Positions 1-28,337 of a stretch of 64,000 bases of DNA are shown here, piece by piece; position 1 is the first letter of the stretch, and the number at the start of each line of letters is the position of its first letter. The notes below the pieces were generated by a model that was not told the DNA's origin, ran no database searches, and saw nothing but the letters and a program-made list of their open reading frames with translations. A program made the translations under genes and the position numbers. Source of the stretch: Shigella phage SHSML-45; the sequence record KX130863, one strand, 5' to 3'.

Positions 1-231
1 TAAGCGGCCTAAATCGCATTCTAACGAGCAAAACGCTGTAGGGTAATATTAAAGTAAAGCCTTCACCAGTCGCCCTGGTGGCTCCGCCGTGTTTTGCTCT
101 TTACTATACCGCTGCGCAGTTAGCATAAAACTAGGCGTTAGGCAAGGAAAATAAAAAGGTAAAATAAACGTTGCCCCTAGAAAGAAAATACCTTTATCAT
201 TCTCCTACCGATTAACGAGGGAGGCCAACAA

Positions 232-1218
232 ATGAGGCTATATAAACCAGATAACGCAACCGTCTTAAAAGGTGCATTGCGCAACCTGCTGGACGGTAGC
301 AGAACAACCAGCATTAAACACTTTGTTAACAAGGCCGAAGATATTCACCAAAATTTTTTTGATGATTTCGATGCCTATGATATGAGTAGTTTTTTGCAAC
401 TGTATAAGCAGGGGGCAACGATTATCTTGTATAATCGGGATAATCACCTGCTTACTAGCAGGGGGCCGGATACCGATTTCATAATTGTAAAAGGTAGCAC
501 AGTAAAAGCCTATGATACTGGGGCGGGCTTAGAAGTTTTTTCAATAGAAAACTATGAAGCCAACCCCAATGATCTTTATGACGTTGAAAACTTTCTTGAT
601 TCATTTTGGCGTTATTTATCCGTTGGCTGGAATCGGTCAATTGGTGACGGGTATCGTCTGGCGGCTGTAATGGCTTTTGATGATAACGGTAATTTTTTGC
701 TACCGCCGGAATTATATGATCGTGTATATGAAGGCGATATTGTTGACGCCGGATTCTCTTTCGAAAGAGAAGAAAGTATTGGCAATATAGAAAAACATGC
801 TGTAAATTCTAACACTCAAAGCGTTAATACTCAAATCACTGAAAATAAAGGAAAAAACACCATGACCAAGATCGCTAATATTGTTGCCGCTAATAAATCC
901 GCTGTTGTAAACGCTGCAAAACTGGAAGCGGGTAAAATTGCACTGACTCAAATTACGAAAGTAGCGGCGAAAAAAGCACCGTTTATGATTAAAGGTTATA
1001 TTGATACACCTATCGGTCGAGTAGTGATTGCCAACCTGCTGAGCGTAGCGGTTGACCAGTACGCCCCAAGTAACCAAAAGGCGAAAGCGGTAGCAGGGGC
1101 AGCTATGGAAGCGGCAATGCTGGAAATGGTGCAAAGTTTTAACATCGCTGAAATGATTGATGAAATGGTGAAAGGTATTGATATTTCTACTTTTACCACT
1201 AGCACCGAAAGCGAGTAA
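232..1218 (+). CDS. hypothetical protein (328 aa)
   Basis: Long ORF with GAGGGAGG Shine-Dalgarno upstream of ATG; hairpin follows the stop. Confidence 0.7.
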   Translation: MRLYKPDNATVLKGALRNLLDGSRTTSIKHFVNKAEDIHQNFFDDFDAYDMSSFLQLYKQGATIILYNRDNHLLTSRGPDTDFIIVKGSTVKAYDTGAGLEVFSIENYEANPNDLYDVENFLDSFWRYLSVGWNRSIGDGYRLAAVMAFDDNGNFLLPPELYDRVYEGDIVDAGFSFEREESIGNIEKHAVNSNTQSVNTQITENKGKNTMTKIANIVAANKSAVVNAAKLEAGKIALTQITKVAAKKAPFMIKGYIDTPIGRVVIANLLSVAVDQYAPSNQKAKAVAGAAMEAAMLEMVQSFNIAEMIDEMVKGIDISTFTTSTESE

Positions 1219-1225
1219 TAATATT

Positions 1226-1256
1226 AAGCGGGGATTGTTACCCCGCTTTACTATTC
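1226..1256 (+). terminator. putative intrinsic terminator (weak T-tract)
   Basis: AAGCGGGG-loop-CCCCGCTT stem directly after stop of 232..1218. Confidence 0.4.
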
Positions 1257-1283
1257 CCTTGTTAACTAATAGGAGGCTAATAA

Positions 1284-1778
1284 ATGGCTGCGGAAAAATA
1301 TGGCTTCTCACTGGGAGAAGTGAGCACGGCAAAACATGATATGATCATTTTGGTCGATTGTCATACTGGCTATTGCGGAGAAGGCTGGACGGAGGAACAT
1401 TTTGTTCCCGCTGGCTGTGATCTGGACGCTTTCGCAAACGAACACGCATATGATAATGCTTCTCGTTTCGGTAGTGATGGGGAAGAAGATGAAGAAACAG
1501 GGGAATGGATTGAAAATGATAATGTATACGCGAGTCTTTATCATTATCAATTGAGTAAGTCCGGTACTTATGTAAATGGTGGCGATCCTATTAATACCGT
1601 TATGAAACTAATTATTAAACACGGTGGCGCGGAAATAATTGGTAACAAGGCGTTATTATATGCAAATCGATTAAAACAGCTTGTTTATATTCCTGATAAT
1701 TCCCGTTGGGATGAATATGCCGTTTTACAGAAAGAACTAAAACGCTGTTTCGGCGTGGAAACATTAGAAATAGTCTAA
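1284..1778 (+). CDS. hypothetical protein (164 aa)
   Basis: ORF with AGGAGG RBS; strong terminator downstream. Confidence 0.7.
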   Translation: MAAEKYGFSLGEVSTAKHDMIILVDCHTGYCGEGWTEEHFVPAGCDLDAFANEHAYDNASRFGSDGEEDEETGEWIENDNVYASLYHYQLSKSGTYVNGGDPINTVMKLIIKHGGAEIIGNKALLYANRLKQLVYIPDNSRWDEYAVLQKELKRCFGVETLEIV

Positions 1779-1793
1779 TGTAAAGTTTTGTAA

Positions 1794-1823
1794 AGGTCGC
1801 CTATTATGGCGGCCTTTTTTGTT
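1794..1823 (+). terminator. intrinsic terminator
   Basis: AGGTCGCC-TATTAT-GGCGGCCT stem followed by TTTTTTGTT. Confidence 0.7.
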
Positions 1824-1885
1824 ATAATGCCTTTACACCGAAACGGTGGACTGAAAATTTTCCCTGATTTCTAGGAGGCGTTAAA

Positions 1886-2035
1886 ATGGTTATTTTTCGA
1901 TCTATTCTGGCTAGTATCTTGGGCGCTATTTTATCACTGTTTGCAATAGCTTTCGGAGTTCACGTGGTTATTATTGGAGCAGGTATCGCGGGGTTTTCTT
2001 ACTTGTTAGGCTGTATGACTGGTAAAGGGGAATAA
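1886..2035 (+). CDS. small hydrophobic peptide (49 aa), below the 60-aa ORF track cutoff
   Basis: AGGAGG RBS 6 nt upstream of ATG; translation is one hydrophobic helix; stop abuts next start. Confidence 0.45.
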   Translation: MVIFRSILASILGAILSLFAIAFGVHVVIIGAGIAGFSYLLGCMTGKGE

Positions 2036-2037
2036 AA

Positions 2038-2250
2038 ATGTTAAAGAATGTTTCCCTTGCCCGTTCCAAAGGTTTTAAGCTGGTGGATGTTAACACGTTC
2101 GAGCGTCCAGATTGTAAAATCGAATATGTAGCACGCAACAAAAACGCTTTCCGTGTTACAGAAAAGAAATTTGACAAGCGCGGCAATTTGGTAGCCGAAA
2201 CGGTTAAACACTTTGCCACCTTTTACGCTGCATTTCGTGGGGTATTATGA
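2038..2250 (+). CDS. hypothetical protein (70 aa)
   Basis: ORF in co-directional tightly packed cluster. Confidence 0.5.
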   Translation: MLKNVSLARSKGFKLVDVNTFERPDCKIEYVARNKNAFRVTEKKFDKRGNLVAETVKHFATFYAAFRGVL

Positions 2251-2365
2251 TAGCGCAAATTAAAACAGCGTTTCGTTTCTGGGGAGTGATCCTCAGCGTA
2301 TGTTTTGGCATAGTTATTATTAGCCAGCTAATGATCATTGTTGCAATCGCAGGGGAAATGCTATC

Positions 2366-2710
2366 ATGGTAATTTATGAGGGCAATCGTTTTGTTACTAA
2401 TTGCCGTCCGGCATTATTAGCAAACTATTTAAACCAGCTTTCACCAGTTTATAAAGGCGTGGTTAATATCTATGAAGGCAAAGCACATTATAAAATTTCT
2501 GCCGTTGTCACCCGTGAACTAGCGTTTCAATTTTTAACTTTTGGGTCTTGTGACGTTCAGGTTATGGGGGAAGCGTTAATAGCAGAAAATGAAAATGAAT
2601 TTACTGACATTTTCCGCAAAGTATGTACGGAGCGCCTGATTATGAAAGGCGCATATATTCAATCCACTGCTGAAAGTATTGAAACAGCATTTCGAAAAAT
2701 TGCACAATGA
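2366..2710 (+). CDS. hypothetical protein (114 aa)
   Basis: ORF in co-directional cluster. Confidence 0.55.
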   Translation: MVIYEGNRFVTNCRPALLANYLNQLSPVYKGVVNIYEGKAHYKISAVVTRELAFQFLTFGSCDVQVMGEALIAENENEFTDIFRKVCTERLIMKGAYIQSTAESIETAFRKIAQ

Positions 2711-2837
2711 ATAGCTGGTGGCGAAAAACACAAAGCCATAAATCTAATAATACCGCTGGGAAGCATTCCCAGCGTTTACGATTTGGTAATGGCTTCACAA
2801 TGATATTGATAATCATTCTCATTCTAGGAGCAATGGC

Positions 2838-3077
2838 ATGGCTGTAAGAATTTTACGATATGTAGAACGTAAAGAAACCGATATTATGCAACATCATTTA
2901 ACTGATGGGCAATACGCGCAATTTTTAGAAATGCAGAAAAGCGGAGCTGATACAGCAACGCTAGGAGCGTGGATCAACTCAGTTTCAACGTGTACGCATT
3001 TTGATTCATACGGGTATACGCCAGCCGAAACCGTCCAGATCTTTGACGACTACGAGAAAGAATACATAACAGACTAA
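2838..3077 (+). CDS. hypothetical protein (79 aa)
   Basis: AGGAG RBS before ATG; terminator hairpin after stop. Confidence 0.55.
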   Translation: MAVRILRYVERKETDIMQHHLTDGQYAQFLEMQKSGADTATLGAWINSVSTCTHFDSYGYTPAETVQIFDDYEKEYITD

Positions 3078-3083
3078 TAATAA

Positions 3084-3113
3084 CGGGGCGCAACTATCGG
3101 CCCCGCTTTTTCT
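3084..3113 (+). terminator. intrinsic terminator
   Basis: CGGGGC-loop-GCCCCG stem followed by CTTTTTCT. Confidence 0.6.
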
Positions 3114-3250
3114 GGCCTTCCTCAAATTTCCCCTTATTAAAGTACCTCCTCCAAAATTAAAACGCTTAGAATGCGTTTGAGAGCGTTTTAGACCTATATT
3201 AGAGTTATTCACTACGTAGGAATACTGTATAAATATACAGTAGGATAACC

Positions 3251-3259
3251 TGTGGATAA
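3251..3259. promoter_or_regulatory. DnaA-box-like site TGTGGATAA
   Basis: Exact reverse complement of TTATCCACA; embedded in repeated AACCTGTGGATAA. Confidence 0.5.
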
Positions 3260-3323
3260 GTCTGTTGAAAACGCCTCAAAATCGCTAGGGTTTTGTCAAG
3301 TCAAATCGTGCTGTTAATAAACC

Positions 3324-3332
3324 TGTGGATAA
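3324..3332. promoter_or_regulatory. DnaA-box-like site TGTGGATAA (second copy)
   Basis: Same 13-bp context AACCTGTGGATAA, 73 bp from first copy. Confidence 0.5.
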
Positions 3333-3349
3333 CTTAAATAACAGTGTTT

Positions 3350-3510
3350 CTCACTTCCCTTTCTAAATGCGAATCATTCTCAGTATGTGACTCATTCGTA
3401 TTCAACTCTGTAAATGATAACCGTTCTCATTCCCCTTTCTAAACGCGAATCATTATCATTCGCATTCAACTTCTCAAATGCGAATCAATCTCATTATCAT
3501 TCGCATTCAG
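3350..3510. repeat. cluster of short palindromes and direct repeats
   Basis: TCCCTTTCTAAA(T/C)GCGAATCATT occurs twice; GCGAAT..ATTCGC inverted arms repeated. Confidence 0.5.
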
Positions 3511-3566
3511 GCGAGCAGGGCAATTGCCCTGCGCTTTTGTGCAAATCCGACATTTGCCCCCATGGA

Positions 3567-4106
3567 TTACGCGTGGGCGTGTATGTGCAAATCCGACCCA
3601 TTTTTGGTAGTGTGCAAATCCGACCCTAAAATTTCATCCCTCCATTTTACTAGAAATTCTAGATCATATGAACACTTAGACTGAGTACCATTACTAGTAG
3701 GAACATAAGCCCGGTAATAATCACCCTTTGAGGTAGTTCTAGCAACACGAATATATTTTGGAAGATTGGTTGTTTTACTGTTGGTATTTTTGCGATTTCT
3801 AGCATTTTTATAGTCTGGTATTTGTCTTAGATTCTCAGGAGAATTATTAGTGGGATCCTGATCTATATGATCTACCTGCAACTCGGGATCAATACTGCCG
3901 TTATGCAGGCAGAAAACAATCCGAGAAACTGCTAGGGTTCCCACCCCAGATACAAAGACCACATAAGACTTCCTACCTTTTCCGTCGTCCCTTAAAGTGC
4001 CTGTATGTTTTCTTTTAGGTAATCTACTCAGCCCACTGGGACTTGATGGGTCAATAAAAAATAAGTCTTTCATTTGTGCATATTCGATAGGTATATATCT
4101 TGACAT
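3567..4106 (-). CDS. HNH homing endonuclease (start moved to internal ATG with AGGAGG RBS)
   Basis: HNH-like motif DHIDQDPTNNSPENLR; nested in the repeat region. Confidence 0.75.
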   Translation of the reverse strand: MSRYIPIEYAQMKDLFFIDPSSPSGLSRLPKRKHTGTLRDDGKGRKSYVVFVSGVGTLAVSRIVFCLHNGSIDPELQVDHIDQDPTNNSPENLRQIPDYKNARNRKNTNSKTTNLPKYIRVARTTSKGDYYRAYVPTSNGTQSKCSYDLEFLVKWRDEILGSDLHTTKNGSDLHIHAHA

Positions 4107-4180
4107 AATAAAATTCCTCCTATGAAGTAATATTATAACAAAATTTTCGAAAGTGTGCAAGTGAAATTTTTATATTTGAA

Positions 4181-4208
4181 AATAACCGCCCTCCCTATAA
4201 CCGCCCTA
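4181..4208 (+). repeat. 28-bp direct repeat, copy A
   Basis: AAATAACCGCCCTCCCTATAACCGCCCT; second copy ~510 bp downstream with one mismatch. Confidence 0.6.
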
Positions 4209-4289
4209 TTCGAATCCTGTGGGATATGTGCAAATCCGACACGGTTTTTCTAGGATTAAGATGTGCGAATCCAATGAAATTTTTGTGAC

Positions 4290-4480
4290 TTCGATGAGAG
4301 GGTGTGTGATTGTGTGAGTTTGGGGAGAAGTTGAGAGAGCGAGAGAAATTTAGAGGCTAGAAGGATGTGGGCGCAGGATTGGTGCGGAGCACCTGATTTG
4401 CGGGGATTTTGGGGAAGAGTTGAGATAATTTGGGAAGATTTGAGATAGGTGCAGAAAAAGTAAAATTTTATTAGCAAAAT
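4290..4480 (+). repeat. purine-rich strand-asymmetric tract with degenerate GAAGAGTTGAGATA-like repeats
   Basis: Plus strand almost entirely G/A/T; the 92-aa minus-strand ORF here is low-complexity and likely spurious. Confidence 0.5.
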
Positions 4481-4693
4481 GGGGCAAAATAGCTTGACAA
4501 GTGGAAATTCTTGTGGATCTAAAAACTCAGGCAATCATGGGCCTTCGGCCCGAAATAATGCTGCTATTTTCGGGAGATTATATGTTCCTAAAAACTTAGG
4601 CATTTGTGCAAATCCGACCAGTTTTTAAACTCCTGTCAGTGTGCAAATCCGATAGCAATTTCCAGAAATGTGTTTTGGAAAAATGTCTTCTAG

Positions 4694-4721
4694 AAATAAC
4701 TGCCCTCCCTATAACCGCCCT
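4694..4721 (+). repeat. 28-bp direct repeat, copy B
   Basis: AAATAACTGCCCTCCCTATAACCGCCCT. Confidence 0.6.
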
Positions 4722-5234
4722 GTATAGAAAACCGGCCTAAGATATGTGACGTTGGTGAGAAACTGCCCTAGAATGCGTGCAAATCCGATGAATATTTTTG
4801 TGTGATCTCTAGAATTTGTGCTTATCAATTTCCTAGAAACTTAGGAGTCTAGAAGAAAGTGTTGTGCCATCCTAGCAGATGAGCGGCAACCGGTGTATCA
4901 TCTTGAACGTTAATTTATCTATTCAACAGTATTAGTTTTTATATAAGTATAAGATCCCCAGGGTTCTCATATAGAGCTTTGCCCCCACCAGAAGGTCTCG
5001 TGATGTTTCTAGTAATCTTTATTAAATTACCTGTTGACTTGTCCTGTCGCTCCGTAACCTACGCTACAAGTCAGTAATTTAAGATTCCTGAACCACCACA
5101 CCTTCTGTGTGGCAACTCTAAATGGTTAATTCTATTAACTCATAGAGTTATGATAACATACATTTAGCTATCTGTCAACGAGAGTTTGTATTTGAGTCTC
5201 GGTACAGGTATTGTGCACCGAGACATGCAGAGTA

Positions 5235-6119
5235 CTATAATAATTCTTGGTATGCTTTCTGATACGCCTCAGTATCTGTAGGTGTATCTTTTGCTAACGC
5301 AATTAGTTCATCCGTTATCTGAATATTCGTATTATAACGTTGGTGGAACTCGTCTGGAATTTCTAGATATCTATTTATGAATGCTGCAGCAAGCGGTGTA
5401 ACTAACCCAATTTCTAGAGATAACTTAACTTGTTTCTCATAAATTAAATATTGAGAATCAGACGGTATTGGTGGGGTTACATCAATTTTTTCTGGTTCTT
5501 TTTCTGGTAGCAATGGATTGTTATACAATGCTTCATCTGGAAGCACAGATTTACGCTCTTTAAATATATAAGTTTCTAGATCAGATGCTTTAGACCCTGA
5601 ATACACAGCAAAAACGCTAGCTTTACCTTGAGATGCCCTAACTGGTAAGTAACTAGTAGGGTAGCTCCTTAATGCATCGTGGAATGGACTTCCTGAGTAT
5701 TTGTATGTATCCCCATAGAGATCATCAATATTCATTCGTTCATCTTCAAAGATATGGAAAGAGCTAAATGATGGGATAGTAAAGTATTCCATCTGTAATC
5801 CATAAACTAAGAAACGATGTGCGTATGCACTGATTTTTAAGACTGTAAATGCTTTCTCACCTTCTTTATAGGAATTGCCTTTTGAAGTAACTTGGTAACG
5901 TTTACAAAACATCTCTACTAGACGTTTCTCATTAATACCAAGAGTGGAGTACAGTCGTCCATTTAATCCTATAAGTGCATCGAACATAAATGCTAGTTTA
6001 TCTTTTTCTTCTTGGGATAGTTCTGGAAATGGCAATACTTTGGCATTAGGAACACTATTGTTCTCTTTAGGTTTTGTTTTACCAGCATTTTGTCTTAGTT
6101 TATCTTTAAAGTTATACAT
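5235..6119 (-). CDS. hypothetical protein (294 aa)
   Basis: First long ORF of the minus-strand early block. Confidence 0.65.
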   Translation of the reverse strand: MYNFKDKLRQNAGKTKPKENNSVPNAKVLPFPELSQEEKDKLAFMFDALIGLNGRLYSTLGINEKRLVEMFCKRYQVTSKGNSYKEGEKAFTVLKISAYAHRFLVYGLQMEYFTIPSFSSFHIFEDERMNIDDLYGDTYKYSGSPFHDALRSYPTSYLPVRASQGKASVFAVYSGSKASDLETYIFKERKSVLPDEALYNNPLLPEKEPEKIDVTPPIPSDSQYLIYEKQVKLSLEIGLVTPLAAAFINRYLEIPDEFHQRYNTNIQITDELIALAKDTPTDTEAYQKAYQELL

Positions 6120-6198
6120 TATTATCTCCCGTTTTTAAGGTCTGGATGACCTTCTTTTTATTTTAGAGCCTCCGTAGAGGCTCATATATTAGGAATTA

Positions 6199-6810
6199 TT
6201 AATCCTTTTTACTCTCATTAATAACAGCCCCCAATGCTTCCATAATTGCATCTTCTAGACTTCCATGTTTATCAGGATTACTAAAATGAATAGTATAAAC
6301 AGAATTCCTAGAAACTCCAGCATCCGCAGGTGCTACGCTTCGCATATCAGATTCAAAAGCTTCTTGGGTATGTTGCAGCTGTACAGAAGGGCCGTAATCT
6401 TCACCAAACTTATATGACTGTGTGTTACTTACCACACCCCCACAAGGAACATTGTGCATATCCGACATTAATCTTTTATCAGAATTATTTAACATTGCAA
6501 TTGGCCCAGACTGCCATGGATCTCTAATAGTCACTGGAGTACTAGGGCGGTTCACCTCAGTCTTCACAAGTTTGTACCCTGCATCGATTAGTGCATTAAT
6601 CAGGTTATCCGCCGGGATGCGAGCCGTACCAAAAATCTTACGAGCATCTTCGAGCTTACCTTCAAGATCTTTACATGCTCTAAGGTCAGTGTGTGCAAAT
6701 GTTAGCTTCATAGATTTGAATTGTACAGTAGCAGTTAAATCTTTAAAGCTATAATCCCATGTGTTCAGTTCATGGTCTGGTACTACTTGAATAGGTTGTT
6801 GTGTAAACAT
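6199..6810 (-). CDS. hypothetical protein (203 aa)
   Basis: Long ORF, co-directional. Confidence 0.65.
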   Translation of the reverse strand: MFTQQPIQVVPDHELNTWDYSFKDLTATVQFKSMKLTFAHTDLRACKDLEGKLEDARKIFGTARIPADNLINALIDAGYKLVKTEVNRPSTPVTIRDPWQSGPIAMLNNSDKRLMSDMHNVPCGGVVSNTQSYKFGEDYGPSVQLQHTQEAFESDMRSVAPADAGVSRNSVYTIHFSNPDKHGSLEDAIMEALGAVINESKKD

Positions 6811-6995
6811 TATTTATTCTCCAGTTTGTCTAACAGTTTATGGGCTGCTAGGTTATATTGCTCAAGTTCACGATTAAGGATTTGGTTTTCACACTTTAGC
6901 TCTAGATTCTTATTATTAAGAATATTGCAGATCAGTAGAAGTGCTAATATAACTAGCAAGGAACCTACAAGTATTAAAAGAAAAAGAGTTTCCAT
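6810..6995 (-). CDS. small membrane protein (61 aa)
   Basis: Hydrophobic N-terminal helix; start/stop coupling with neighbours. Confidence 0.45.
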   Translation of the reverse strand: METLFLLILVGSLLVILALLLICNILNNKNLELKCENQILNRELEQYNLAAHKLLDKLENK

Positions 6996-7228
6996 TATTT
7001 AATTCCCATGTAACGTTTGAGATATATGACGAAGTCTTCTGCTGTATGCTCCACACTACCTTGAGCTACAAACAACTTTAAAGCCTCACGCTGTAATTTA
7101 AGAGCAGCTAACTCACCACGTAATTTTGTTATATCTTCCGCTAGTTCTCTAGCTCTGCGCATAATAGCAAATGATACAAATGTTACAATAAATAACATAA
7201 CTGCTAAAATAATTACTATGATCTCCAT
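6995..7228 (-). CDS. small membrane protein (77 aa)
   Basis: N-terminal TM helix then coiled-coil-like region. Confidence 0.45.
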   Translation of the reverse strand: MEIIVIILAVMLFIVTFVSFAIMRRARELAEDITKLRGELAALKLQREALKLFVAQGSVEHTAEDFVIYLKRYMGIK

Positions 7229-7506
7229 ATTAACATCCAGCTTTTATCATATATTTGGGCATGTTCTACTAATTCATTTATTGATGTAGAATTATCGTAG
7301 ATACCCTCTAGTAAACGTTTTCTGTCAAATTTATCAACCAAATACTCCGCGCCATTTATCACTACCATATACAGCTCTGGAACTAAGGGGTGTTTGTTTG
7401 GTATTGGACGACTACCTAAGTCTATTTCATTTTTACCCCACTCTGTTTTAAACAGTCTGTTACTAAGTGCTGCTAGTGGGTTTGACCATACAATATAGCT
7501 ACTCAC
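7216..7506 (-). CDS. hypothetical protein (96 aa)
   Basis: ORF overlapping neighbours by a few nt. Confidence 0.5.
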   Translation of the reverse strand: MSSYIVWSNPLAALSNRLFKTEWGKNEIDLGSRPIPNKHPLVPELYMVVINGAEYLVDKFDRKRLLEGIYDNSTSINELVEHAQIYDKSWMLIWRS

Positions 7507-8047
7507 TACTTATCTCCATTCTTAGCTTTGAAAACTTATTATACCAAACTATATGATTATCGTCAATTACAAATTTATGGTAACATGCTGGTACGGTATA
7601 AGTTCCATAATCCGTGACACGCTGCACAACCTTGTGTGCACACAGTCGACAACCATGCCCTTCTAAATGAGATCTAGCAGTTTGCCAGTAATAACCCTTA
7701 TGGTCTGGACAATAGATCTCGACTTGCTGTTGCATTGTTTTATAATTTACACGCTCATACCCAAAGAAAGCCCCGTGAGCTGCAATGGCTTTCTTGATAA
7801 ATATAAGGTTTAGCGCCTCTTGCTGAAAATCGGGATGTAGCTGTTTAATCTTAGTTCTATTAATAGATCCATCCGATTTGATGAACCTATTTATTGGAAA
7901 GTTGTTAGCTTCCTCGATTAATAGTTCATTTACTTTCTCTCTCATATTAGATACTCTCACAACTAAGATGGAAACATTCGTAAGCATCTCCAGTAAACTC
8001 TTTATCTTGTAGTATACACTTAGCCTGGTCTTCTGGTACTCCAACAT
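7499..8047 (-). CDS. hypothetical Cys/His-rich protein (true start probably internal, near 7945)
   Basis: 5-prime 100 nt overlap the upstream ORF in another frame. Confidence 0.5.
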   Translation of the reverse strand: MLEYQKTRLSVYYKIKSLLEMLTNVSILVVRVSNMREKVNELLIEEANNFPINRFIKSDGSINRTKIKQLHPDFQQEALNLIFIKKAIAAHGAFFGYERVNYKTMQQQVEIYCPDHKGYYWQTARSHLEGHGCRLCAHKVVQRVTDYGTYTVPACYHKFVIDDNHIVWYNKFSKLRMEISSE

Positions 8048-8225
8048 CTAATAATTGTTGTTTACTTGGCTTTTCAGCGAATACTTTTACAAAATACTCA
8101 CCATCCTGATTATACTCATTTATATCTCTAGTAAGGACATATACTTGCATTTGAAGTTCCTTGAAACATAAAAGGCCAGAACAATTAAGTCCTGGCCTCC
8201 TAAAATTAATGAAGTTGTTTACCAC
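7947..8225 (-). CDS. hypothetical protein (92 aa)
   Basis: ORF; terminator hairpin lies upstream of it. Confidence 0.45.
   Translation of the reverse strand: MVNNFINFRRPGLNCSGLLCFKELQMQVYVLTRDINEYNQDGEYFVKVFAEKPSKQQLLDVGVPEDQAKCILQDKEFTGDAYECFHLSCESI
8163..8198 (-). terminator. intrinsic terminator (minus strand)
   Basis: AGGCCAG-loop-CTGGCCT stem followed on the minus strand by TTTTATGTT. Confidence 0.55.
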
Positions 8226-8643
8226 TTCTTAACATAGTGGCCGTTTCCATAAGACCTAGCGTAGCATCACGCTTATTGATCTGTTTACCAAGTTCATCAG
8301 TACGTTTACTGATGTAAGCATTAATAGCCATATTCATAGCTGTAGCGAGATCTTCTTTGGTTATCTCTTCATCGTCTAAAGCTAATTTAGCCAAAGAATC
8401 AAATGTGCTAGAGAGTCCTATAAGATCTGAGGTTTCTCCCGCCAAAATAGGATTAATATTATCTACTGTTACTTCTAGCATGGAGTTGACAATATCTTCA
8501 CCGTCTATTAGACCAGTTTCAATATTACTCTCCCACTCCTTCATCTGCTCCAATAATGGATTTTTCTTTTCTGTCATGGTAGAGGTTTCCTGTGTCAGTC
8601 GGTAAGAAGGATGATTGAGCTTTAGGCGGATGTTGCTTAGCAA
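8206..8643 (-). CDS. hypothetical protein (start possibly internal, near 8577)
   Basis: ORF; N-terminal part overlaps upstream ORF. Confidence 0.5.
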   Translation of the reverse strand: MLSNIRLKLNHPSYRLTQETSTMTEKKNPLLEQMKEWESNIETGLIDGEDIVNSMLEVTVDNINPILAGETSDLIGLSSTFDSLAKLALDDEEITKEDLATAMNMAINAYISKRTDELGKQINKRDATLGLMETATMLRSGKQLH

Positions 8644-8986
8644 TCCAGTTAAGAATCAGCACGCGACTAGGAACAATATCGGTGTTATACCAAAAATCGT
8701 GAACCCATTGACGAGCATCTTCAAACTTACCAAATTTATATGCTTTCTTAAACAATTCAAATCCAAAACAATCTGGTGTAAAGTCTACTTCGCGATATTG
8801 AATTACTTTAGAACCAGTTAGGTCTTGGATCGCTGCATTAATTTCTGTATGCGAGAACTTTGTTTCATGAAACTTATTAAAGAATCGGTAGTTGAAGCGT
8901 CCGTTCGTTTCGACAAACAACTGGATGAAAAGATCGTTAAATTGGTTATCAAACCAGTAATTCTGTAGTTGTTGTAGTGCTGTCAT
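8525..8986 (-). CDS. hypothetical protein (153 aa)
   Basis: ORF. Confidence 0.55.
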   Translation of the reverse strand: MTALQQLQNYWFDNQFNDLFIQLFVETNGRFNYRFFNKFHETKFSHTEINAAIQDLTGSKVIQYREVDFTPDCFGFELFKKAYKFGKFEDARQWVHDFWYNTDIVPSRVLILNWIAKQHPPKAQSSFLPTDTGNLYHDRKEKSIIGADEGVGE

Positions 8987-9183
8987 TTACGAACTCCGTT
9001 AATTGCCGTGATAATGCCTTCATACATAAAAGGAAGTAACCAAGAAGTATAGAATATATTTTCCGTTATTCCTAGATGTCGAAAAAGTATATTAAATAAT
9101 GCTGTTAGAAATACAATCTGAGGCAGTAATACAAAATACTCAGTTACAATCTTTGGTGCCTGATAAACAAGACGTTTTATCAT
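8983..9183 (-). CDS. small membrane protein (66 aa)
   Basis: Hydrophobic; ATGA start/stop overlap with next gene. Confidence 0.4.
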   Translation of the reverse strand: MIKRLVYQAPKIVTEYFVLLPQIVFLTALFNILFRHLGITENIFYTSWLLPFMYEGIITAINGVRK

Positions 9184-9282
9184 TGTTTTTAAGTCTCCTT
9201 ATTACTTTGGCCTGCTCCACAATAATGAAAACTGCGAGCACTAATAGTGCTATTAGCCCCGCAGTAATTGGTACTAAATCAA

Positions 9283-9672
9283 TCATGGGAGACGCCATAC
9301 GTAATTAGCTGTCTGTAGAACTTCGGAAACATCATCATGTTGCATCACTACAGACGTTGGAGAGTAACTATTCGCCAGTTCTGTACGAACCATCTCACGT
9401 TCTTCTCCAGTTTCAATATTTTTAACAACCACCTTCATTTTGAGAGGTGTCAGTTCAGAGAGCGGTTTCCAAGAGTCCTCAATTGCAATTCCTACCTTTT
9501 TCTCGATTACCATGAGAACTTCTAGTGTGTCATCTGGAATACTAATATTATTATTTACAAACTGTAACAGCTCATGCAAAGTATTTAATTCGTTAAAATT
9601 AAGTTTCATCTTTAAGAATATCCTCAACCATATCACAGGACTGTTGCAATTCGTCAGCAATACGCTTAACAT
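9283..9672 (-). CDS. hypothetical protein (129 aa)
   Basis: ORF. Confidence 0.5.
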   Translation of the reverse strand: MLSVLLTNCNSPVIWLRIFLKMKLNFNELNTLHELLQFVNNNISIPDDTLEVLMVIEKKVGIAIEDSWKPLSELTPLKMKVVVKNIETGEEREMVRTELANSYSPTSVVMQHDDVSEVLQTANYVWRLP

Positions 9673-9844
9673 CGGTCTTCGTCACTTTACCAATTAACAT
9701 CACCAGTAGCATAGAAAGTATAATAAGTGGAACTGGAATAACAAATAATGCTACCTTAGCTATATTCTTCGGTGCCCATGTATGGTACTTAGTAACTAGA
9801 ACTCCTACCACGATTAGGTAAAATGCTAGAATAAACATCATCAT
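9599..9844 (-). CDS. small membrane protein (81 aa)
   Basis: Two predicted TM helices. Confidence 0.4.
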   Translation of the reverse strand: MMMFILAFYLIVVGVLVTKYHTWAPKNIAKVALFVIPVPLIILSMLLVMLIGKVTKTDVKRIADELQQSCDMVEDILKDET

Positions 9845-10116
9845 TTTTTAATCTCCGTGATTATCTGTGTGCGCATTACTTTAGCAGGTAATTTATTATT
9901 CCCAACTATTGCTTCTATATTATTTAATTTTTCCTTAAGAATATCCGAGCGTCTTTGGGCTATTTCAATATCTTGCTCTAGCAAACGGTGGTGTAGTCCA
10001 TCGTTAGTAATAAGCATATTTTCCATGCTTTTTCGTGCATTCACAATCCCAATAACTCCGCCAATCGCTACTAGCGTAGTAAGAATTAGTAACCCAATAA
10101 GAATTTCAATCAACAT
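9841..10116 (-). CDS. small membrane protein (91 aa)
   Basis: N-terminal TM helix. Confidence 0.45.
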   Translation of the reverse strand: MLIEILIGLLILTTLVAIGGVIGIVNARKSMENMLITNDGLHHRLLEQDIEIAQRRSDILKEKLNNIEAIVGNNKLPAKVMRTQIITEIKK

Positions 10117-10279
10117 TAAATATCCTTACATTTTTCATTGTTTGGAACTAGTTTACACAACTCCACATTTAACTCGTGGATAGAATTGTCTAGTTCTTCT
10201 AAACGTGTGTGAAGAGAAACTATACTATATATTAACACTCCTAAAAGGAATGACAGCATAAAAATGGATAGTCTTTCCA

Positions 10280-10576
10280 TTATTTCTTACCTTTCAGTTG
10301 TTTAACTTCACGCTCAAAGCTAGCTGCTCGGCGTTCTGCCACTGCTTGATGCTCCTTAGCAAAGCGTGCCTCTTGTTTTGCTAAGTTAAAGGCCATAGCG
10401 TTCTTGTTAAGAGAATCGTACATCTTTTTCATTGCTGGGATGGACATTTTCATCAGTTGCCCCTCAAATCCTTGCATGTCGAGGAGAATTGCTAATACAT
10501 TGGCCATTTCAGTCTTGGTAAGGTTAGAGGCGTCGAAGTCTTTAGTCATGTTTTCCATTAGAATTTCCTCTCTCAT
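10280..10576 (-). CDS. hypothetical protein (98 aa)
   Basis: Preceded by conserved promoter and leader. Confidence 0.55.
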   Translation of the reverse strand: MREEILMENMTKDFDASNLTKTEMANVLAILLDMQGFEGQLMKMSIPAMKKMYDSLNKNAMAFNLAKQEARFAKEHQAVAERRAASFEREVKQLKGKK

Positions 10577-10590
10577 TAATTTATGAACTT

Positions 10591-10619
10591 ATTATACAGA
10601 ATTTTAAGGCTTAAAGCAA
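10591..10619 (-). promoter_or_regulatory. sigma70-type early promoter (TTGCTT-N17-TATAAT)
   Basis: Reverse complement gives TTGCTT, 17-nt spacer, TATAAT, then conserved leader ending in GAGAGG. Confidence 0.55.
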
Positions 10620-10636
10620 CTGAATTTTTTAATTAC

Positions 10637-11068
10637 TTACCAATCGTTAACGAAACCTGAGAACTCAGAAGCAAAAACTTTTTCAAATTTTTCTGCAATT
10701 TCAGGATGATCTTTACAGATTAACTCAATACATGCTTCTGGAGCTATTCCTTCGTCTTCAGGATCACCGTAATATTTGTCCCAAAGATCATCAGGGATGA
10801 TGTGCTCTGCCAAATCTTGGAAAGAGATTAGCTGATAACGTTCTGCTTCCTCGGGGATAAGGATTTCACAAAGATCTTTATCTATATCACTACGGTAATC
10901 AGCAATTAGCAAGGCATTGCAAGCATGGCACTCCCAAACCATCAAGCGTTCAGAAATAGGATTAGACTTATCCTGAACGTAAGACTGAAACAGGGGTCGG
11001 AAAGTAGCTTTGACTTGTTCAAACTTATCTGCTGCTGCGAAAACTAGAGCCTTATCAACTTTGTTCAT
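10637..11068 (-). CDS. hypothetical protein (143 aa)
   Basis: ORF preceded by conserved promoter and leader. Confidence 0.55.
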   Translation of the reverse strand: MNKVDKALVFAAADKFEQVKATFRPLFQSYVQDKSNPISERLMVWECHACNALLIADYRSDIDKDLCEILIPEEAERYQLISFQDLAEHIIPDDLWDKYYGDPEDEGIAPEACIELICKDHPEIAEKFEKVFASEFSGFVNDW

Positions 11069-11098
11069 TTTATCTCCTTCTCATCAATTTATAGAGTA

Positions 11099-11127
11099 AT
11101 TATACAGAAACTTAGGCATTTTAGCAA
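11099..11127 (-). promoter_or_regulatory. sigma70-type early promoter (TTGCTA-N17-TATAAT)
   Basis: Consensus hexamers plus conserved leader ATAAATTGATGAGAAGGAG. Confidence 0.55.
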
Positions 11128-17024: not shown

Positions 17025-17777
17025 TTATCCAACTAGTGGTTCTAGCTCTAAGTCACAGAAGTTATAAACTTCTAGTTTAAGGTTATTGATACCATCGAAT
17101 TTATTAACTAATTCGTGAGTAATATATTTTGCAGGAATACCACTTTCAGATGGATGATCTGATTTAATAGTGAACTTCTGCTCAGCGGGTACTACATTTA
17201 CTATCAAAGAATCCATATCTAAATGGTTTGTTTCTCTGAGTAACTCTCCTTCATTGGGGAATCTAACATCTGTTATTACGGCGACATCTGGGTCGTCTTT
17301 AGCGATGGATTGCTCCAGAATTATGAGCCAAATGCGTTCATGCACCAGCTGCCTTCCTAGCTCTGTCCCTACGAGCTGTAACATTTTTCTCGGAGAAATA
17401 AATAAACTATAAAGACCATCTTCTTTACTCTCTGAGATAAGTTGTTGAGGATTAAGATATTTTTCCTCAAAAATAGGCCAAACGTACGAGAAGTCTTCAA
17501 ACTTATCGATACCATACTTAACCCACACATCTCTAGCTCGCTCCAACTGAGATTGTGTGACCGTAAACCATTGGTCAATTTCTTTTCCCCTGCGCTCTCC
17601 TAGAAACTCTGGAGTTACCCCGAGGATTACGGATGCAAGCTCATAAACTGGTTTAGCAAAACTGTAACGACGGGGTAAACACGTTGGATACGTGTCATTA
17701 CACCAATCGATAATTAATTTTGCAACGGTATCTTTTCCTGCACCTGCCTCGCCATGTAAACCTACTAATACTGACAT
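17025..17777 (-). CDS. deoxynucleoside monophosphate kinase-like P-loop protein
   Basis: Walker A GEAGAGKDT near N-terminus; 250 aa. Confidence 0.6.
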   Translation of the reverse strand: MSVLVGLHGEAGAGKDTVAKLIIDWCNDTYPTCLPRRYSFAKPVYELASVILGVTPEFLGERRGKEIDQWFTVTQSQLERARDVWVKYGIDKFEDFSYVWPIFEEKYLNPQQLISESKEDGLYSLFISPRKMLQLVGTELGRQLVHERIWLIILEQSIAKDDPDVAVITDVRFPNEGELLRETNHLDMDSLIVNVVPAEQKFTIKSDHPSESGIPAKYITHELVNKFDGINNLKLEVYNFCDLELEPLVG

Positions 17778-28297: not shown

Positions 28298-28337
28298 AAA
28301 ACAGAAAAGCCCTGCGCTCTCCAGGGAACACAGGGCT
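28298..28337 (-). terminator. intrinsic terminator (minus strand)
   Basis: AGCCCTG-loop-CAGGGCT stem followed on the minus strand by TTTTCTGTTTT. Confidence 0.6.

What the first reader, a model, noticed from the sequence alone, without database searches (positions are those of the whole stretch)
3100..5230. Two-kilobase non-coding, repeat-dense locus with DnaA boxes at the boundary of two gene blocks
Between the plus-strand block and the minus-strand early block lies ~2.1 kb with almost no credible coding capacity apart from one nested HNH gene. It carries two exact TGTGGATAA DnaA-box-like 9-mers in a repeated 13-bp context, seven same-orientation copies of GTGCAAATCCGA(C/T) mostly followed by a T-run, a 28-bp direct repeat pair, GCGAAT/ATTCGC palindromes and a ~190-bp purine-rich tract. 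T5 is known to have a repeat- and DnaA-box-containing injection-stop signal separating first-step-transfer DNA from the rest of the genome; this locus may be its counterpart, or an origin or protein-binding array.
Basis: partly seen in the sequence, partly recalled or inferred. Interest (0 to 1): 0.65.

Follow-up and report, generated by a model that had tools for sequence, protein, structure and literature searches.

The report
T5-type injection-stop and terminal-repeat end
This non-coding, repeat-packed stretch is the already described "injection stop signal" region at the right end of the long terminal repeat of a T5-like Salmonella phage (Shivani); it is a known feature whose mechanism is still unsolved.

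Summary
The window is Salmonella phage Shivani (99.7% identical), a Tequintavirus. Window 3100-5230 aligns at 88-92% with T5 "Repeat Region 3", which GenBank record AY543070 labels "injection stop signal (iss)". Davison's 2020 comparison of 25 T5-like phages, Shivani included, already describes this region.

The GCGAAT palindromes are T5's DRC repeats and palindromes E-I. The 13-mer is T5's DRD repeat.

The terminal repeat ends inside the locus, at window 4519|4520 (GTGGATC|TAAAAA). Five phages with annotated ends share that exact position. An HNH homing-endonuclease gene (3567-4106, minus strand) is an insertion that 16 of 17 full-length relatives lack.

What I add:
- The most conserved block is the C-poor tract plus the repeat end, not the DnaA boxes.
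- T5 "palindrome D" (3223-3242) matches the LexA/SOS-box consensus at 19 of 20 positions and is kept in five host genera. No paper I could search mentions this.
- A near-consensus promoter points left toward the repeat end in 18 of 22 relatives.

The feature is already known. How the stop works remains untested.

The parts
3084..3111 (.). GC hairpin plus T-run (T5 'palindrome C'). Terminator that closes the plus-strand pre-early operon.
   Evidence: Sequence. Annotated as a terminator in Shivani at 9688-9709 and in T5 at 9196-9212.
3210..3356 (+). IRD'-spacer-IRC' inverted-repeat module. Its partner IRC-spacer-IRD lies at Shivani 6359-6505, just left of the window.
   Evidence: Two arms of 62-63 nt, 81-92% complementary. 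Aligns to T5 IRD', DRB1, DRB2 and IRC'. Conservation 0.77-0.90 across 17 relatives. Detected by BLAST in Klebsiella, Pectobacterium, Pantoea and Vibrio phages.
3223..3242 (.). T5 'palindrome D', TACTGTATAAATATACAGTA: a LexA/SOS-box-like operator.
   Evidence: Matches the LexA consensus at 19 of 20 positions, against 0.01 expected per 64 kb. Approximate heterology index 0.9. Present in every T5-like locus fetched and in none of 99 unrelated loci. Kept in KpGranit, AAS21 and VCPH.
3251..3271 (+). DnaA-box pair: TGTGGATAA, then gtc, then the variant TGTTGAAAA.
   Evidence: Davison describes pairs separated by 3 bp.
3312..3332 (+). DnaA-box pair: the variant TGTTAATAA, then acc, then TGTGGATAA.
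   Evidence: The second box is TGTGGATAA in 24 of 29 aligned relatives.
3335..3510 (+). Array of GCGAAT...ATTCGC palindromic repeats (T5 DRC/DRE and palindromes E-I). The position homologous to the T5 shear point (9618) falls near 3480.
   Evidence: (families D3, D5, I4). Shear point. Fur-box-like matches of at least 13 of 19 cluster here.
3515..3535 (-). Palindrome J hairpin (GCAGGGCAATTGCCCTGC) with the T5 major-nick motif R/GCGCRGG on the minus strand. Predicted nick between 3534 and 3535.
   Evidence: Consensus taken from PMC3517423. Three matches in this orientation in the window. The CCCTGCGC motif plus DRD1 is nearly invariant.
3539..3624 (+).
3567..4106 (-). HNH homing-endonuclease gene. 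The inserted segment spans roughly 3630-4130. The last codons of the ORF read DRD2 and DRD3 in antisense.
   Evidence: Pfam HNH_3, E = 1.4e-12. Annotated CDS in Shivani. The segment is a gap in 16 of 17 relatives.
4180..4207 (+). First copy of the 28-bp repeat AAATAACCGCCCTCCCTATAACCGCCCT. It lies on the right flank of the HNH insertion and is absent at this position in T5.
4228..4275 (+). DRD copies corresponding to T5 DRD5 and DRD6 (4228 exact, 4263 variant), at -291 and -256 from the repeat end.
4286..4519 (+). C-poor, G-run-rich tract whose G-rich strand runs 5'->3' into the right terminus. Contains T5 DRA2 and DRA3.
   Evidence: C 7.7%, the lowest in the window. GC skew 0.47-0.69. Conservation 0.87-0.96. 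The composition, not the sequence, is kept in KpGranit, AAS21 and VCPH.
4494..4551 (+). Right end of the terminal repeat and its signal: TTGACA..CTTGTGGATC|TAAAAACTCA (cut at 4519|4520), followed by the hairpin GGGCCTTCGGCCC (4539-4551).
   Evidence: Shivani repeat 1-11123, determined by the PAUSE method. Same position in T5 (two records), Sepoy and KpGranit (PhageTerm) and MM-1. Six IMG/VR T5-like loci break off at this point. Conservation 0.89-0.99.
4606..4789 (+). DRD copies 7-9 (4606, 4641, 4777), outside the repeat, with the second 28-bp repeat copy (4694-4721) between them.
   Evidence: Fixed at +87, +122 and +259 from the repeat end in about 20 relatives.
4850..4909 (.). Strongly conserved block with no assigned function.
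   Evidence: Conservation 0.92-0.95. This is the part of 4790-5235 that is shared by most of the 434 relatives matched.
4940..5178 (-). Near-consensus sigma-70 promoter (TTGACA, 17 nt, TG-n-TATCAT; 5178..5150) firing left toward the repeat end, plus the strongly folding transcript it would make.
   Evidence: Matches 11 of 12 positions with TG. A promoter of this kind sits 585-660 bp from the repeat end in 18 of 22 relatives. Fold z-score -5.55. Across 7 sequences: 3 compensatory pairs, 6 one-sided changes, 2 broken pairs. No Rfam match.

Best explanation
The locus is the Shivani orthologue of T5 'Repeat Region 3'. This is the non-coding, cis-acting right end of the ~11-kb long terminal repeat together with the first ~700 bp of unique DNA. 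It is a composite of modules, not a single element.

Shown by homology and annotation:
1. A terminator closing the plus-strand pre-early operon (3084-3111).
2. The IRD'-spacer-IRC' module with two DnaA-box pairs (3210-3356).
3. An array of GCGAAT palindromes (3335-3510).
4. Palindrome J with the conserved major-nick motif (3515-3535).
5. Nine-copy DRD array (3539-4789), split here by an HNH homing-endonuclease insertion.
6. A C-poor tract ending at the physical right end of the repeat (4519|4520).
7. A conserved promoter pointing left toward that end (5178-5150).

Inferred mechanism:
- During infection the left end enters first, and transfer halts when modules 2 and 3 reach the inner face of the envelope. 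The T5 shear point maps to about window 3480.
- I think the most likely brake is a nucleoprotein complex of pre-existing host proteins on module 2: DnaA on the paired boxes, as Davison proposed, and probably LexA on the near-perfect SOS-box-like palindrome. The inverted partner module 3.4 kb upstream may cooperate. I put this at about 0.35.
- The pre-early proteins A1 and A2 then release the brake.
- The right-hand part (DRD copies 5-9, the C-poor tract, the cut site and the hairpin) is, in my reading, a separate signal that forms the genome's right terminus during concatemer processing and packaging. The DRD would be read by a phage-encoded protein. I put this at about 0.5.
For: Identity:
- 99.7% identical to Shivani.
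- 88-92% element-by-element alignment with T5.
- T5 records annotate the iss, the repeats, the nick and the repeat end at these positions.
- The literature describes the same region.

Inverted partner.

Repeat end:
- The same nucleotide position in T5, Shivani, Sepoy, MM-1 and KpGranit, by independent methods.
- Six T5-like IMG/VR loci break off at that point.

Fixed architecture:
- DRD copies sit at -465, -419, -393, -362, -281 or -291, -256, then +87, +122, +259 from the end in about 20 relatives.
- The same order of modules occurs in Sugarlandvirus KpGranit and Pantoea AAS21, and partly in Vibrio VCPH.

Host-factor reading:
- The LexA-like box plus DnaA pair is the only segment that BLAST still finds in a Vibrio phage.
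- The LexA match is 19 of 20, against 0.01 expected, and it is present in all T5-like loci fetched.
- The DRD motif has diverged in the Vibrio phage while the host-protein boxes have not.

Terminus reading:
- The highest conservation is at 4280-4610, around the cut.
- The tract has extreme strand composition.
- There is no DRD at the left repeat boundary of T5.
Against: - No experiment has tested any element of this region. Papers from 2023 and 2026 say so explicitly.
- The stop position in T5 rests on an old shear-fragment estimate of 7.9% and has never been mapped in Shivani.
- Individual DnaA boxes vary between relatives, and half are non-consensus.
- Only 2 consensus boxes occur here, and only 5 relaxed-consensus boxes in the whole 64 kb.
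- It is unclear how protein bound to DNA that has already entered would stop the DNA behind it.
- T5-like phages were isolated on recA1 DH5alpha, so LexA cleavage cannot be the release step.
- From memory, T5 ejects its whole genome in vitro with purified FhuA. This shows the sequence alone is not a block.
- The terminase reading of the DRD array rests only on position and on analogy.
- Three GenBank records place the repeat end 28-209 bp further left.
Confidence: 0.75

Rival explanations
1. The stop is caused by DNA structure, not by bound protein. The dense palindromes (3335-3534) and the nick at the foot of palindrome J let the DNA form hairpins or cruciforms, or a snapped-back 5' end. Such a structure cannot pass the tail or envelope channel until A1 (a predicted metallophosphatase nuclease) and A2 resolve it.
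For: - The single strand of 3200-3560 folds far better than shuffles, z = -4.6.
- The palindromes are conserved.
- The nick motif lies exactly at the 3' edge of the palindrome J stem, and the T5 7.9% nick coincides with the 7.9% transfer length.
- A1 is essential for second-step transfer and is sufficient for DNA degradation.
- The 2026 PNAS discussion lists secondary structure as an option.
Against: - From memory, interruption-deficient T5 mutants are viable (Rogers et al. 1979; I could not read the paper).
- Also from memory, T5 releases all its DNA in vitro through FhuA, so the structure is not an absolute block.
- A1 and A2 are cytoplasmic or membrane proteins and could not reach a block inside the tail.
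- Cruciform extrusion needs supercoiling, which a linear entering DNA lacks.
Confidence: 0.2
2. The whole conserved block is mainly a concatemer-processing and packaging signal that defines the right genome end. The transfer stop would then be set by something other than this sequence, such as physical or energetic limits or virion proteins.
For: - The strongest conservation surrounds the cut site, not the DnaA boxes.
- The DRD array flanks the end on both sides at fixed distances.
- The repeat end falls at the identical nucleotide across genera.
- A conserved promoter faces the end.
- By inference, the left end enters first, so it is packaged last, so packaging should start at the right end.
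Against: - The IRD'-IRC' module lies 1.2 kb from the end in Shivani and has an inverted partner 3.4 kb further left. A cut-site role does not explain this.
- That module is conserved more widely than the cut-site block: 541 records including Klebsiella, Pantoea and Vibrio phages, against 445 records that are almost all Escherichia and Salmonella phages.
- The measured transfer length coincides with this region in T5.
Confidence: 0.12
3. It is a transcriptional control and insulator region. Terminators and operators for host repressors (LexA, Fur-like, DnaA) bracket the dispensable plus-strand pre-early operon and separate pre-early from early transcription. A small RNA is made from the leftward promoter.
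For: - Terminator-like hairpins at 3084-3111 and 3515-3532.
- LexA-like boxes sit in both inverted-repeat copies that bracket the operon.
- The upstream copy overlaps the -10 of a promoter-like site.
- A 17-of-19 Fur-box match lies upstream of ORF 2838-3077.
- The leftward promoter is conserved and its transcript is predicted to be structured.
- The plus-strand operon is dispensable in T5.
Against: - This does not explain nine DRD copies at fixed distances from the repeat end, or the C-poor tract.
- The LexA-like box inside the locus does not overlap a convincing promoter.
- The Fur-like matches come from non-independent repeat units in AT-rich DNA.
Confidence: 0.1
4. It is a DnaA-dependent origin of replication.
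For: Two consensus and two variant DnaA boxes arranged in pairs, which Davison notes is reminiscent of oriC.
Against: - There is no AT-rich unwinding element. GC content at 3125-3424 is 0.35-0.36, close to neighbouring windows in the profile and to the 38.4% genome average.
- There is no skew switch beyond the local C-poor tract.
- Electron-microscopy mapping placed T5 origins near the genome centre, and the replication genes are not expressed during first-step transfer.
Confidence: 0.04

Closest known systems
Bacteriophage T5 injection stop signal, 'Repeat Region 3' of the left terminal repeat (AY543070 misc_feature 9140-10149; AY587007 palindromes C-J, IRD'/IRC', DRB, DRC, DRD1-9, DRA2-3; Heusterspreute 1987; Wang 2005; Davison 2015 and 2020)
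   Same: Orthologous. The alignment is 88-92% identical. Position between the pre-early plus-strand operon and the first early gene, order of all elements, nick motif and repeat-end nucleotide are the same.
   Different: Shivani carries an HNH homing-endonuclease insertion of about 0.5 kb between DRD3 and DRD5. The insertion replaces DRD4 and brings an extra copy of the 28-bp repeat. One DRC unit is shorter. Box 1 is the consensus TGTGGATAA here but TGGGGATAA in T5.
Terminase recognition arrays at genome ends: lambda cosB R-sites with IHF, SPP1 pacL/pacR, and the short repeat arrays flanking the T7 terminal repeat (named from memory)
   Same: Same-orientation short repeats flank a precise cut site that forms a virion DNA end, and a promoter faces the junction.
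   Different: No terminase binding is shown. The array lies only at the right repeat boundary. The repeat is 10-11 kb, not 160 bp. The terminase genes are far away.
oriC-type DnaA-box clusters
   Same: Consensus TTATCCACA boxes sit with weaker variants in closely spaced pairs.
   Different: No unwinding element, no skew switch and no adjacent replication genes.
LexA (SOS) operators of Enterobacteria
   Same: CTGT-N8-ACAG with an AT-rich spacer, 19 of 20 to the consensus. By an approximate index it scores better than most genuine operators.
   Different: The copy in the locus does not overlap a clear promoter. It lies in a virulent phage with no known SOS link. Binding is untested.
Stepwise genome entry of phage T7 (transcription-dependent internalisation; from memory)
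   Same: Only a leading segment enters at first. The rest needs functions that act after entry.
   Different: In T7, RNA polymerase pulls the DNA in. In T5 the restart needs the proteins A1 and A2, and the cause of the stop is unknown.

Membership tests
T5-type injection stop signal / Repeat Region 3 of Demerecviridae | Non-coding stretch at the right end of the long terminal repeat, between the pre-early operon and the first early gene, with the repeat end inside it | tested here: met
   genes end at 3077 and resume at 5235; the repeat ends at 4519.
T5-type injection stop signal / Repeat Region 3 of Demerecviridae | Sequence homology to the annotated T5 iss | tested here: met
   88-92% identity; iss feature.
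T5-type injection stop signal / Repeat Region 3 of Demerecviridae | IRD'-spacer-IRC' module with DnaA boxes in pairs 3 bp apart, and an inverted partner upstream in the repeat | tested here: met
T5-type injection stop signal / Repeat Region 3 of Demerecviridae | DRC/DRE palindromic repeats, palindrome J with the major-nick motif, and the DRD array running past the repeat end | tested here: met
T5-type injection stop signal / Repeat Region 3 of Demerecviridae | DNA transfer actually pauses here in the absence of phage protein synthesis | not testable with these tools
   Needs infection experiments. Measured only for T5 and BF23.
DnaA-dependent replication origin | Cluster of DnaA boxes next to an AT-rich unwinding element | tested here: not met
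   Boxes are present, but no AT-rich element or 13-mer unwinding repeats are found.
DnaA-dependent replication origin | Switch of cumulative GC skew at the site | tested here: not met
   only the local C-poor tract perturbs the skew.
Terminase recognition / end-formation site | Coincides with a physical genome end at a fixed nucleotide | tested here: met
Terminase recognition / end-formation site | Terminase (small subunit) binds the flanking repeats and the site is sufficient for cutting or packaging | not testable with these tools
   No binding or packaging data were found.
LexA (SOS) operator | CTGT-N8-ACAG palindrome close to the consensus TACTG(TA)5CAGTA | tested here: met
LexA (SOS) operator | Overlaps a promoter it represses | tested here: inconclusive
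   No clear promoter at 3223-3242. The partner copy overlaps the -10 of a promoter-like site at Shivani 6509..6482.
LexA (SOS) operator | Bound by LexA | not testable with these tools
   Needs EMSA or ChIP.

The most novel reading that the evidence does not exclude
The brake that halts T5-type DNA entry is a composite operator for pre-existing host DNA-binding proteins. It would consist of a near-perfect LexA box fused to paired DnaA boxes, possibly extended by Fur-like hexamer arrays. It is present in two inverted copies that bracket the right pre-early operon and is conserved from Escherichia to Vibrio phages. The DRD array, C-poor tract and cut site would form a separate terminus-forming signal, read by a phage protein and served by a conserved promoter facing the end. 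As far as I could check, the LexA element has not been reported.
Probability: 0.15. Interest if true: 0.7.

Novelty: already known. Interest (0 to 1): 0.3.

Why it matters
Two-step DNA entry in T5 has been known since the 1960s, yet nobody knows what stops the DNA or how A1 and A2 restart it. Papers from 2023 and 2026 still call the mechanism untested. Re-identifying the locus in Shivani adds nothing in itself.

The comparative anatomy does narrow the experiments:
- It separates a deeply conserved module that looks like a host-protein binding site (LexA-like box plus DnaA boxes) from a terminus-proximal module (DRD array, C-poor tract, cut site).
- It names specific hosts to test (lexA, dnaA and fur alleles).
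- It names specific small deletions that could be made with the existing T5 engineering toolbox.

Tried and rejected
- **Rfam scan** of 2900-5400 on both strands at E up to 1: only a sub-threshold PrrF match (23 bits against a gathering score of 90), rejected.
- **DRD as promoters:** only one copy (4604-4632) has a weak -35/-10 arrangement, so this was rejected.
- **DRD as nickase sites:** the nick consensus occurs at 3528, 17589 and 28311 without adjacent DRD copies, and no DRD occurs elsewhere except 6454.
- **DRD at the left repeat boundary of T5:** none found. A search for shared repeats there found only unrelated repeats inside a coding region.
- **T5 'DRA copy 1':** I looked for it near the left terminus as a possible element shared by both cut sites. 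It was not in the stretches examined.
- **LexA cleavage as the timer that releases the stop:** rejected because T5-like phages ESCO30 and ESCO40 were isolated on recA1 DH5alpha, and because A2 mutants degrade host DNA but do not complete transfer.
- **Replication origin:** rejected (literature).
- **14-mer scan of IMG/VR:** the TGTGCAAATCCGAC motif clusters only in contigs of 108-122 kb, the size of T5-like genomes; single hits elsewhere are consistent with chance.
- **My own error, corrected:** I first misread the T5-homologous repeat end as 4509. The alignment shows it is 4519, identical to the Shivani annotation.
- **Papers not held:** Davison 2015 and Rogers 1979. Heusterspreute 1987 and Wang 2005 were not looked up. 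I therefore cannot exclude an earlier mention of the LexA box.
Full report
**Observation.**
- The plus-strand genes end at 3077 and the minus-strand genes begin at 5235. The only credible ORF between them is 3567-4106 on the minus strand, an HNH_3 endonuclease at E = 1.4e-12.
- GTGCAAATCCGAY occurs exactly seven times, all on the plus strand, with three degenerate copies. That is 11 matches at up to 2 mismatches against 1.8 expected, and no shuffle out of 100 reached it.
- TGTGGATAA occurs exactly twice in the 64 kb, 73 bp apart, in an identical 13-bp context.
- The 28-bp repeat pair, the GCGAAT/ATTCGC palindromes and the purine-rich tract are all present. The tract is really C-poor (7.7% C) and is the most C-poor 234-nt stretch in the window.

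**Identity.** The region is 99.7% identical to Salmonella phage Shivani, a Tequintavirus. Window coordinate equals Shivani coordinate minus 6604.
- It aligns at 88-92% with T5 8.8-11.2 kb.
- The T5 Hangzhou record annotates, in the same order: palindrome C and a terminator, palindrome D, IRD', DRB1, DRB2, IRC', DRC1-4 with palindromes E-I, palindrome J, 'major single-stranded nick 1, 7.9%', DRD1-6, DRA2-3, the end of the left terminal repeat, and DRD7-9.
- The T5 Moscow record labels 9140-10149 'injection stop signal (iss)'.
- Davison's preprint calls this 'Repeat Region 3'. It compares 25 T5-like phages including Shivani and proposes that membrane-bound DnaA on the paired boxes stops the DNA.
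The 28-bp repeat is a resident element just outside the repeat. The HNH insertion has duplicated it.
- The inverted partner of window 3210-3356 lies at Shivani 6359-6505, just left of the window.

**The terminal-repeat end lies inside the locus.** Shivani's 11,123-bp repeat was determined from read pile-ups with the PAUSE method. It ends at window 4519|4520, in ...CTTGTGGATC|TAAAAACTCA.
- The homologous nucleotide is the annotated repeat end in both T5 records, in Sepoy and KpGranit (both by PhageTerm) and in MM-1.
- Six T5-like IMG/VR loci break off exactly there.
- Three records (saus111K, poul149, Kenya-K38) place it 28-209 bp further left. I take these to be less precise.

**Comparative anatomy.** DRD copies sit at nearly invariant distances from the repeat end in about 20 relatives: -465, -419, -393, -362, -281 or -291 and -256 on the left, then +87, +122 and +259 on the right. 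In Shivani the first three copies are pushed about 515 bp further left by the HNH insertion, which 16 of 17 full-length relatives lack.
- Conservation is highest at 4280-4610, which covers the C-poor tract, the cut site and the hairpin GGGCCTTCGGCCC (0.87-0.99). Next come 3200-3380 and 4850-4909.
- The full order of modules recurs in Klebsiella phage KpGranit, which belongs to a different genus, and in Pantoea phage AAS21. It is partly present in Vibrio phage VCPH.
- That order is: LexA-like palindrome and DnaA boxes; GCGAAT palindromes; CCTGCGC nick motif and DRD1; DRD array; G-rich C-poor tract; repeat end; hairpin; DRD array; AATAACCGCCCT repeats; leftward promoter.
- In the Vibrio phage the DRD motif has drifted to AGTGCGAAATCTA while the LexA-like and DnaA boxes are kept. 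This fits a phage-encoded reader for DRD and host readers for the boxes. It is an inference.
- The nick consensus R/GCGCRGG is intact on the minus strand at 3528-3535. It recurs in the same orientation at 17589 and 28311.

**New details.**
1. *LexA-like box.* T5 'palindrome D' (3223-3242, TACTGTATAAATATACAGTA) matches the LexA box consensus at 19 of 20 positions, against 0.01 expected per window.
   - Its approximate heterology index is 0.9, against a median of 5.25 for the operators used to build the matrix.
   - A second copy sits in the inverted partner, next to TTATCCACAgacTTATCCACA.
   - A match is present in every T5-like locus fetched and in none of 99 unrelated loci.
   - Its CTGT...ACAG arms are more constant than the individual DnaA boxes.
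   - Davison's preprint never mentions LexA, and no searchable paper links LexA to T5 entry. I could not read the 1987, 2005 and 2015 papers.
2. *Fur-box-like sequences.* There is a 17-of-19 match at 2802-2820, upstream of ORF 2838-3077. Ten of the window's 66 matches of at least 13 of 19 fall in 3363-3498. These are non-independent repeat units in AT-rich DNA, so this is only a lead.
3. *Leftward promoter.* A near-consensus extended -10 promoter points left toward the repeat end. It lies 585-660 bp from the end in 18 of 22 distinct relatives, even where the intervening DNA is not homologous. Its predicted transcript folds with z = -5.55 and shows some covariation. It has no Rfam match.

**Mechanism.**
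- What is established comes from the literature. T5 DNA enters left end first and pauses at about 8% without phage protein synthesis. It resumes only with A1 and A2.
- The T5 shear point (9618) maps to about window 3480. At the pause, the LexA-like/DnaA module would have just emerged into the cell, with the GCGAAT array and nick at the envelope.
- My preferred reading is that the locus holds two signals. The first is a left-hand brake built from host-protein sites. The second is a right-hand terminus-forming signal (DRD5-9, C-poor tract, cut site, hairpin).
- Because the left end enters first it should be packaged last, so packaging should begin at this right end. That step is an inference.
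- Neither function has been tested by anyone.
- LexA cleavage cannot be the release step, because T5-like phages grow on recA1 DH5alpha.
- The rivals are a structure-based stop at the palindromes and nick, a purely packaging role, a transcriptional insulator, and a replication origin. The last is the least supported.

**Verdict.** The feature is already known and annotated in T5, and was already compared across the family with Shivani included. Interest is low to moderate. The value lies in the sharper dissection and in the LexA-box lead, which makes an old open question easier to test.

Noticed in passing
window 3223-3242; second copy at L001 (Shivani) 6473-6492: T5 'palindrome D' matches the LexA/SOS-box consensus at 19 of 20 positions. 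It lies directly next to the DnaA-box pair and is conserved in Escherichia, Salmonella, Klebsiella, Pantoea and Vibrio T5-like phages. The two common variants (CTGTATAAATATACAG and CTGTATATTTATACAG) are reverse complements of each other. No paper I could search mentions it.
   Followed up: partly
window 2802-2820 and 3363-3498: Fur-box-like sequences. GATATTGATAATCATTCTC (17 of 19 to the Fur consensus) lies just upstream of the ribosome-binding site of ORF 2838-3077. A cluster of 13-14 of 19 matches lies in the GCGAAT palindrome array. Similar units occur in T5, KpGranit, AAS21 and VCPH. This could be coincidence in AT-rich palindromes.
   Followed up: partly
window 4940-5178, minus strand: A near-consensus extended -10 sigma-70 promoter (TTGACA, 17 nt, TG-n-TATCAT) lies downstream of the last early gene and fires toward the repeat end. 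A promoter of this kind is found 585-660 bp from the end in 18 of 22 relatives. The predicted ~200-nt transcript folds with z = -5.55, with 3 compensatory pairs in 7 sequences. No gene, annotation or Rfam family is associated with it.
   Followed up: partly
window 4850-4909: A 60-bp block conserved at 0.92-0.95 across relatives. It is the part of 4790-5235 that most of the 434 matching records share. I could not assign a motif or function.
   Followed up: no
window 6454-6466, inside ORF 6199-6810 (minus strand): An extra same-orientation DRD copy (GTGCATATCCGAC, 1 mismatch) lies inside a coding gene. Exact copies occur at a similar place (+1.9 to +2.9 kb from the repeat end) in several relatives.
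   Followed up: no
window 3567-3630: The HNH ORF runs out of the inserted segment and ends inside DRD2 and DRD3 read in antisense. This gives the protein a C-terminal ...GSDLHTTKNGSDLH... tail made from the phage's own repeats.
   Followed up: no
window 17589-17596 and 28311-28318: Two further matches to the T5 major-nick consensus (CCTGCGCT on the plus strand, so the nick would be in the minus strand). They lie at about 20% and 29% of the Shivani genome, roughly where T5 has its 18.5% and 32.6% nicks.
   Followed up: no
L001 1-25 (Shivani left terminus) versus L003 1015-1040 (T5 left terminus): The first ~10 bp of the genome differ by an apparent inversion: T5 has TGTCCACTGCC and Shivani has TGCAGTGGGC. 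In T5 both termini end in 5'-CWGTGGAYM-3', but this symmetry is not kept in Shivani.
   Followed up: no
L125, L126, L129 (saus111K, Kenya-K38, poul149): These GenBank records annotate the terminal-repeat end 28-209 bp to the left of the position shared by T5, Shivani, Sepoy, MM-1 and KpGranit. The boundaries are probably imprecise.
   Followed up: partly
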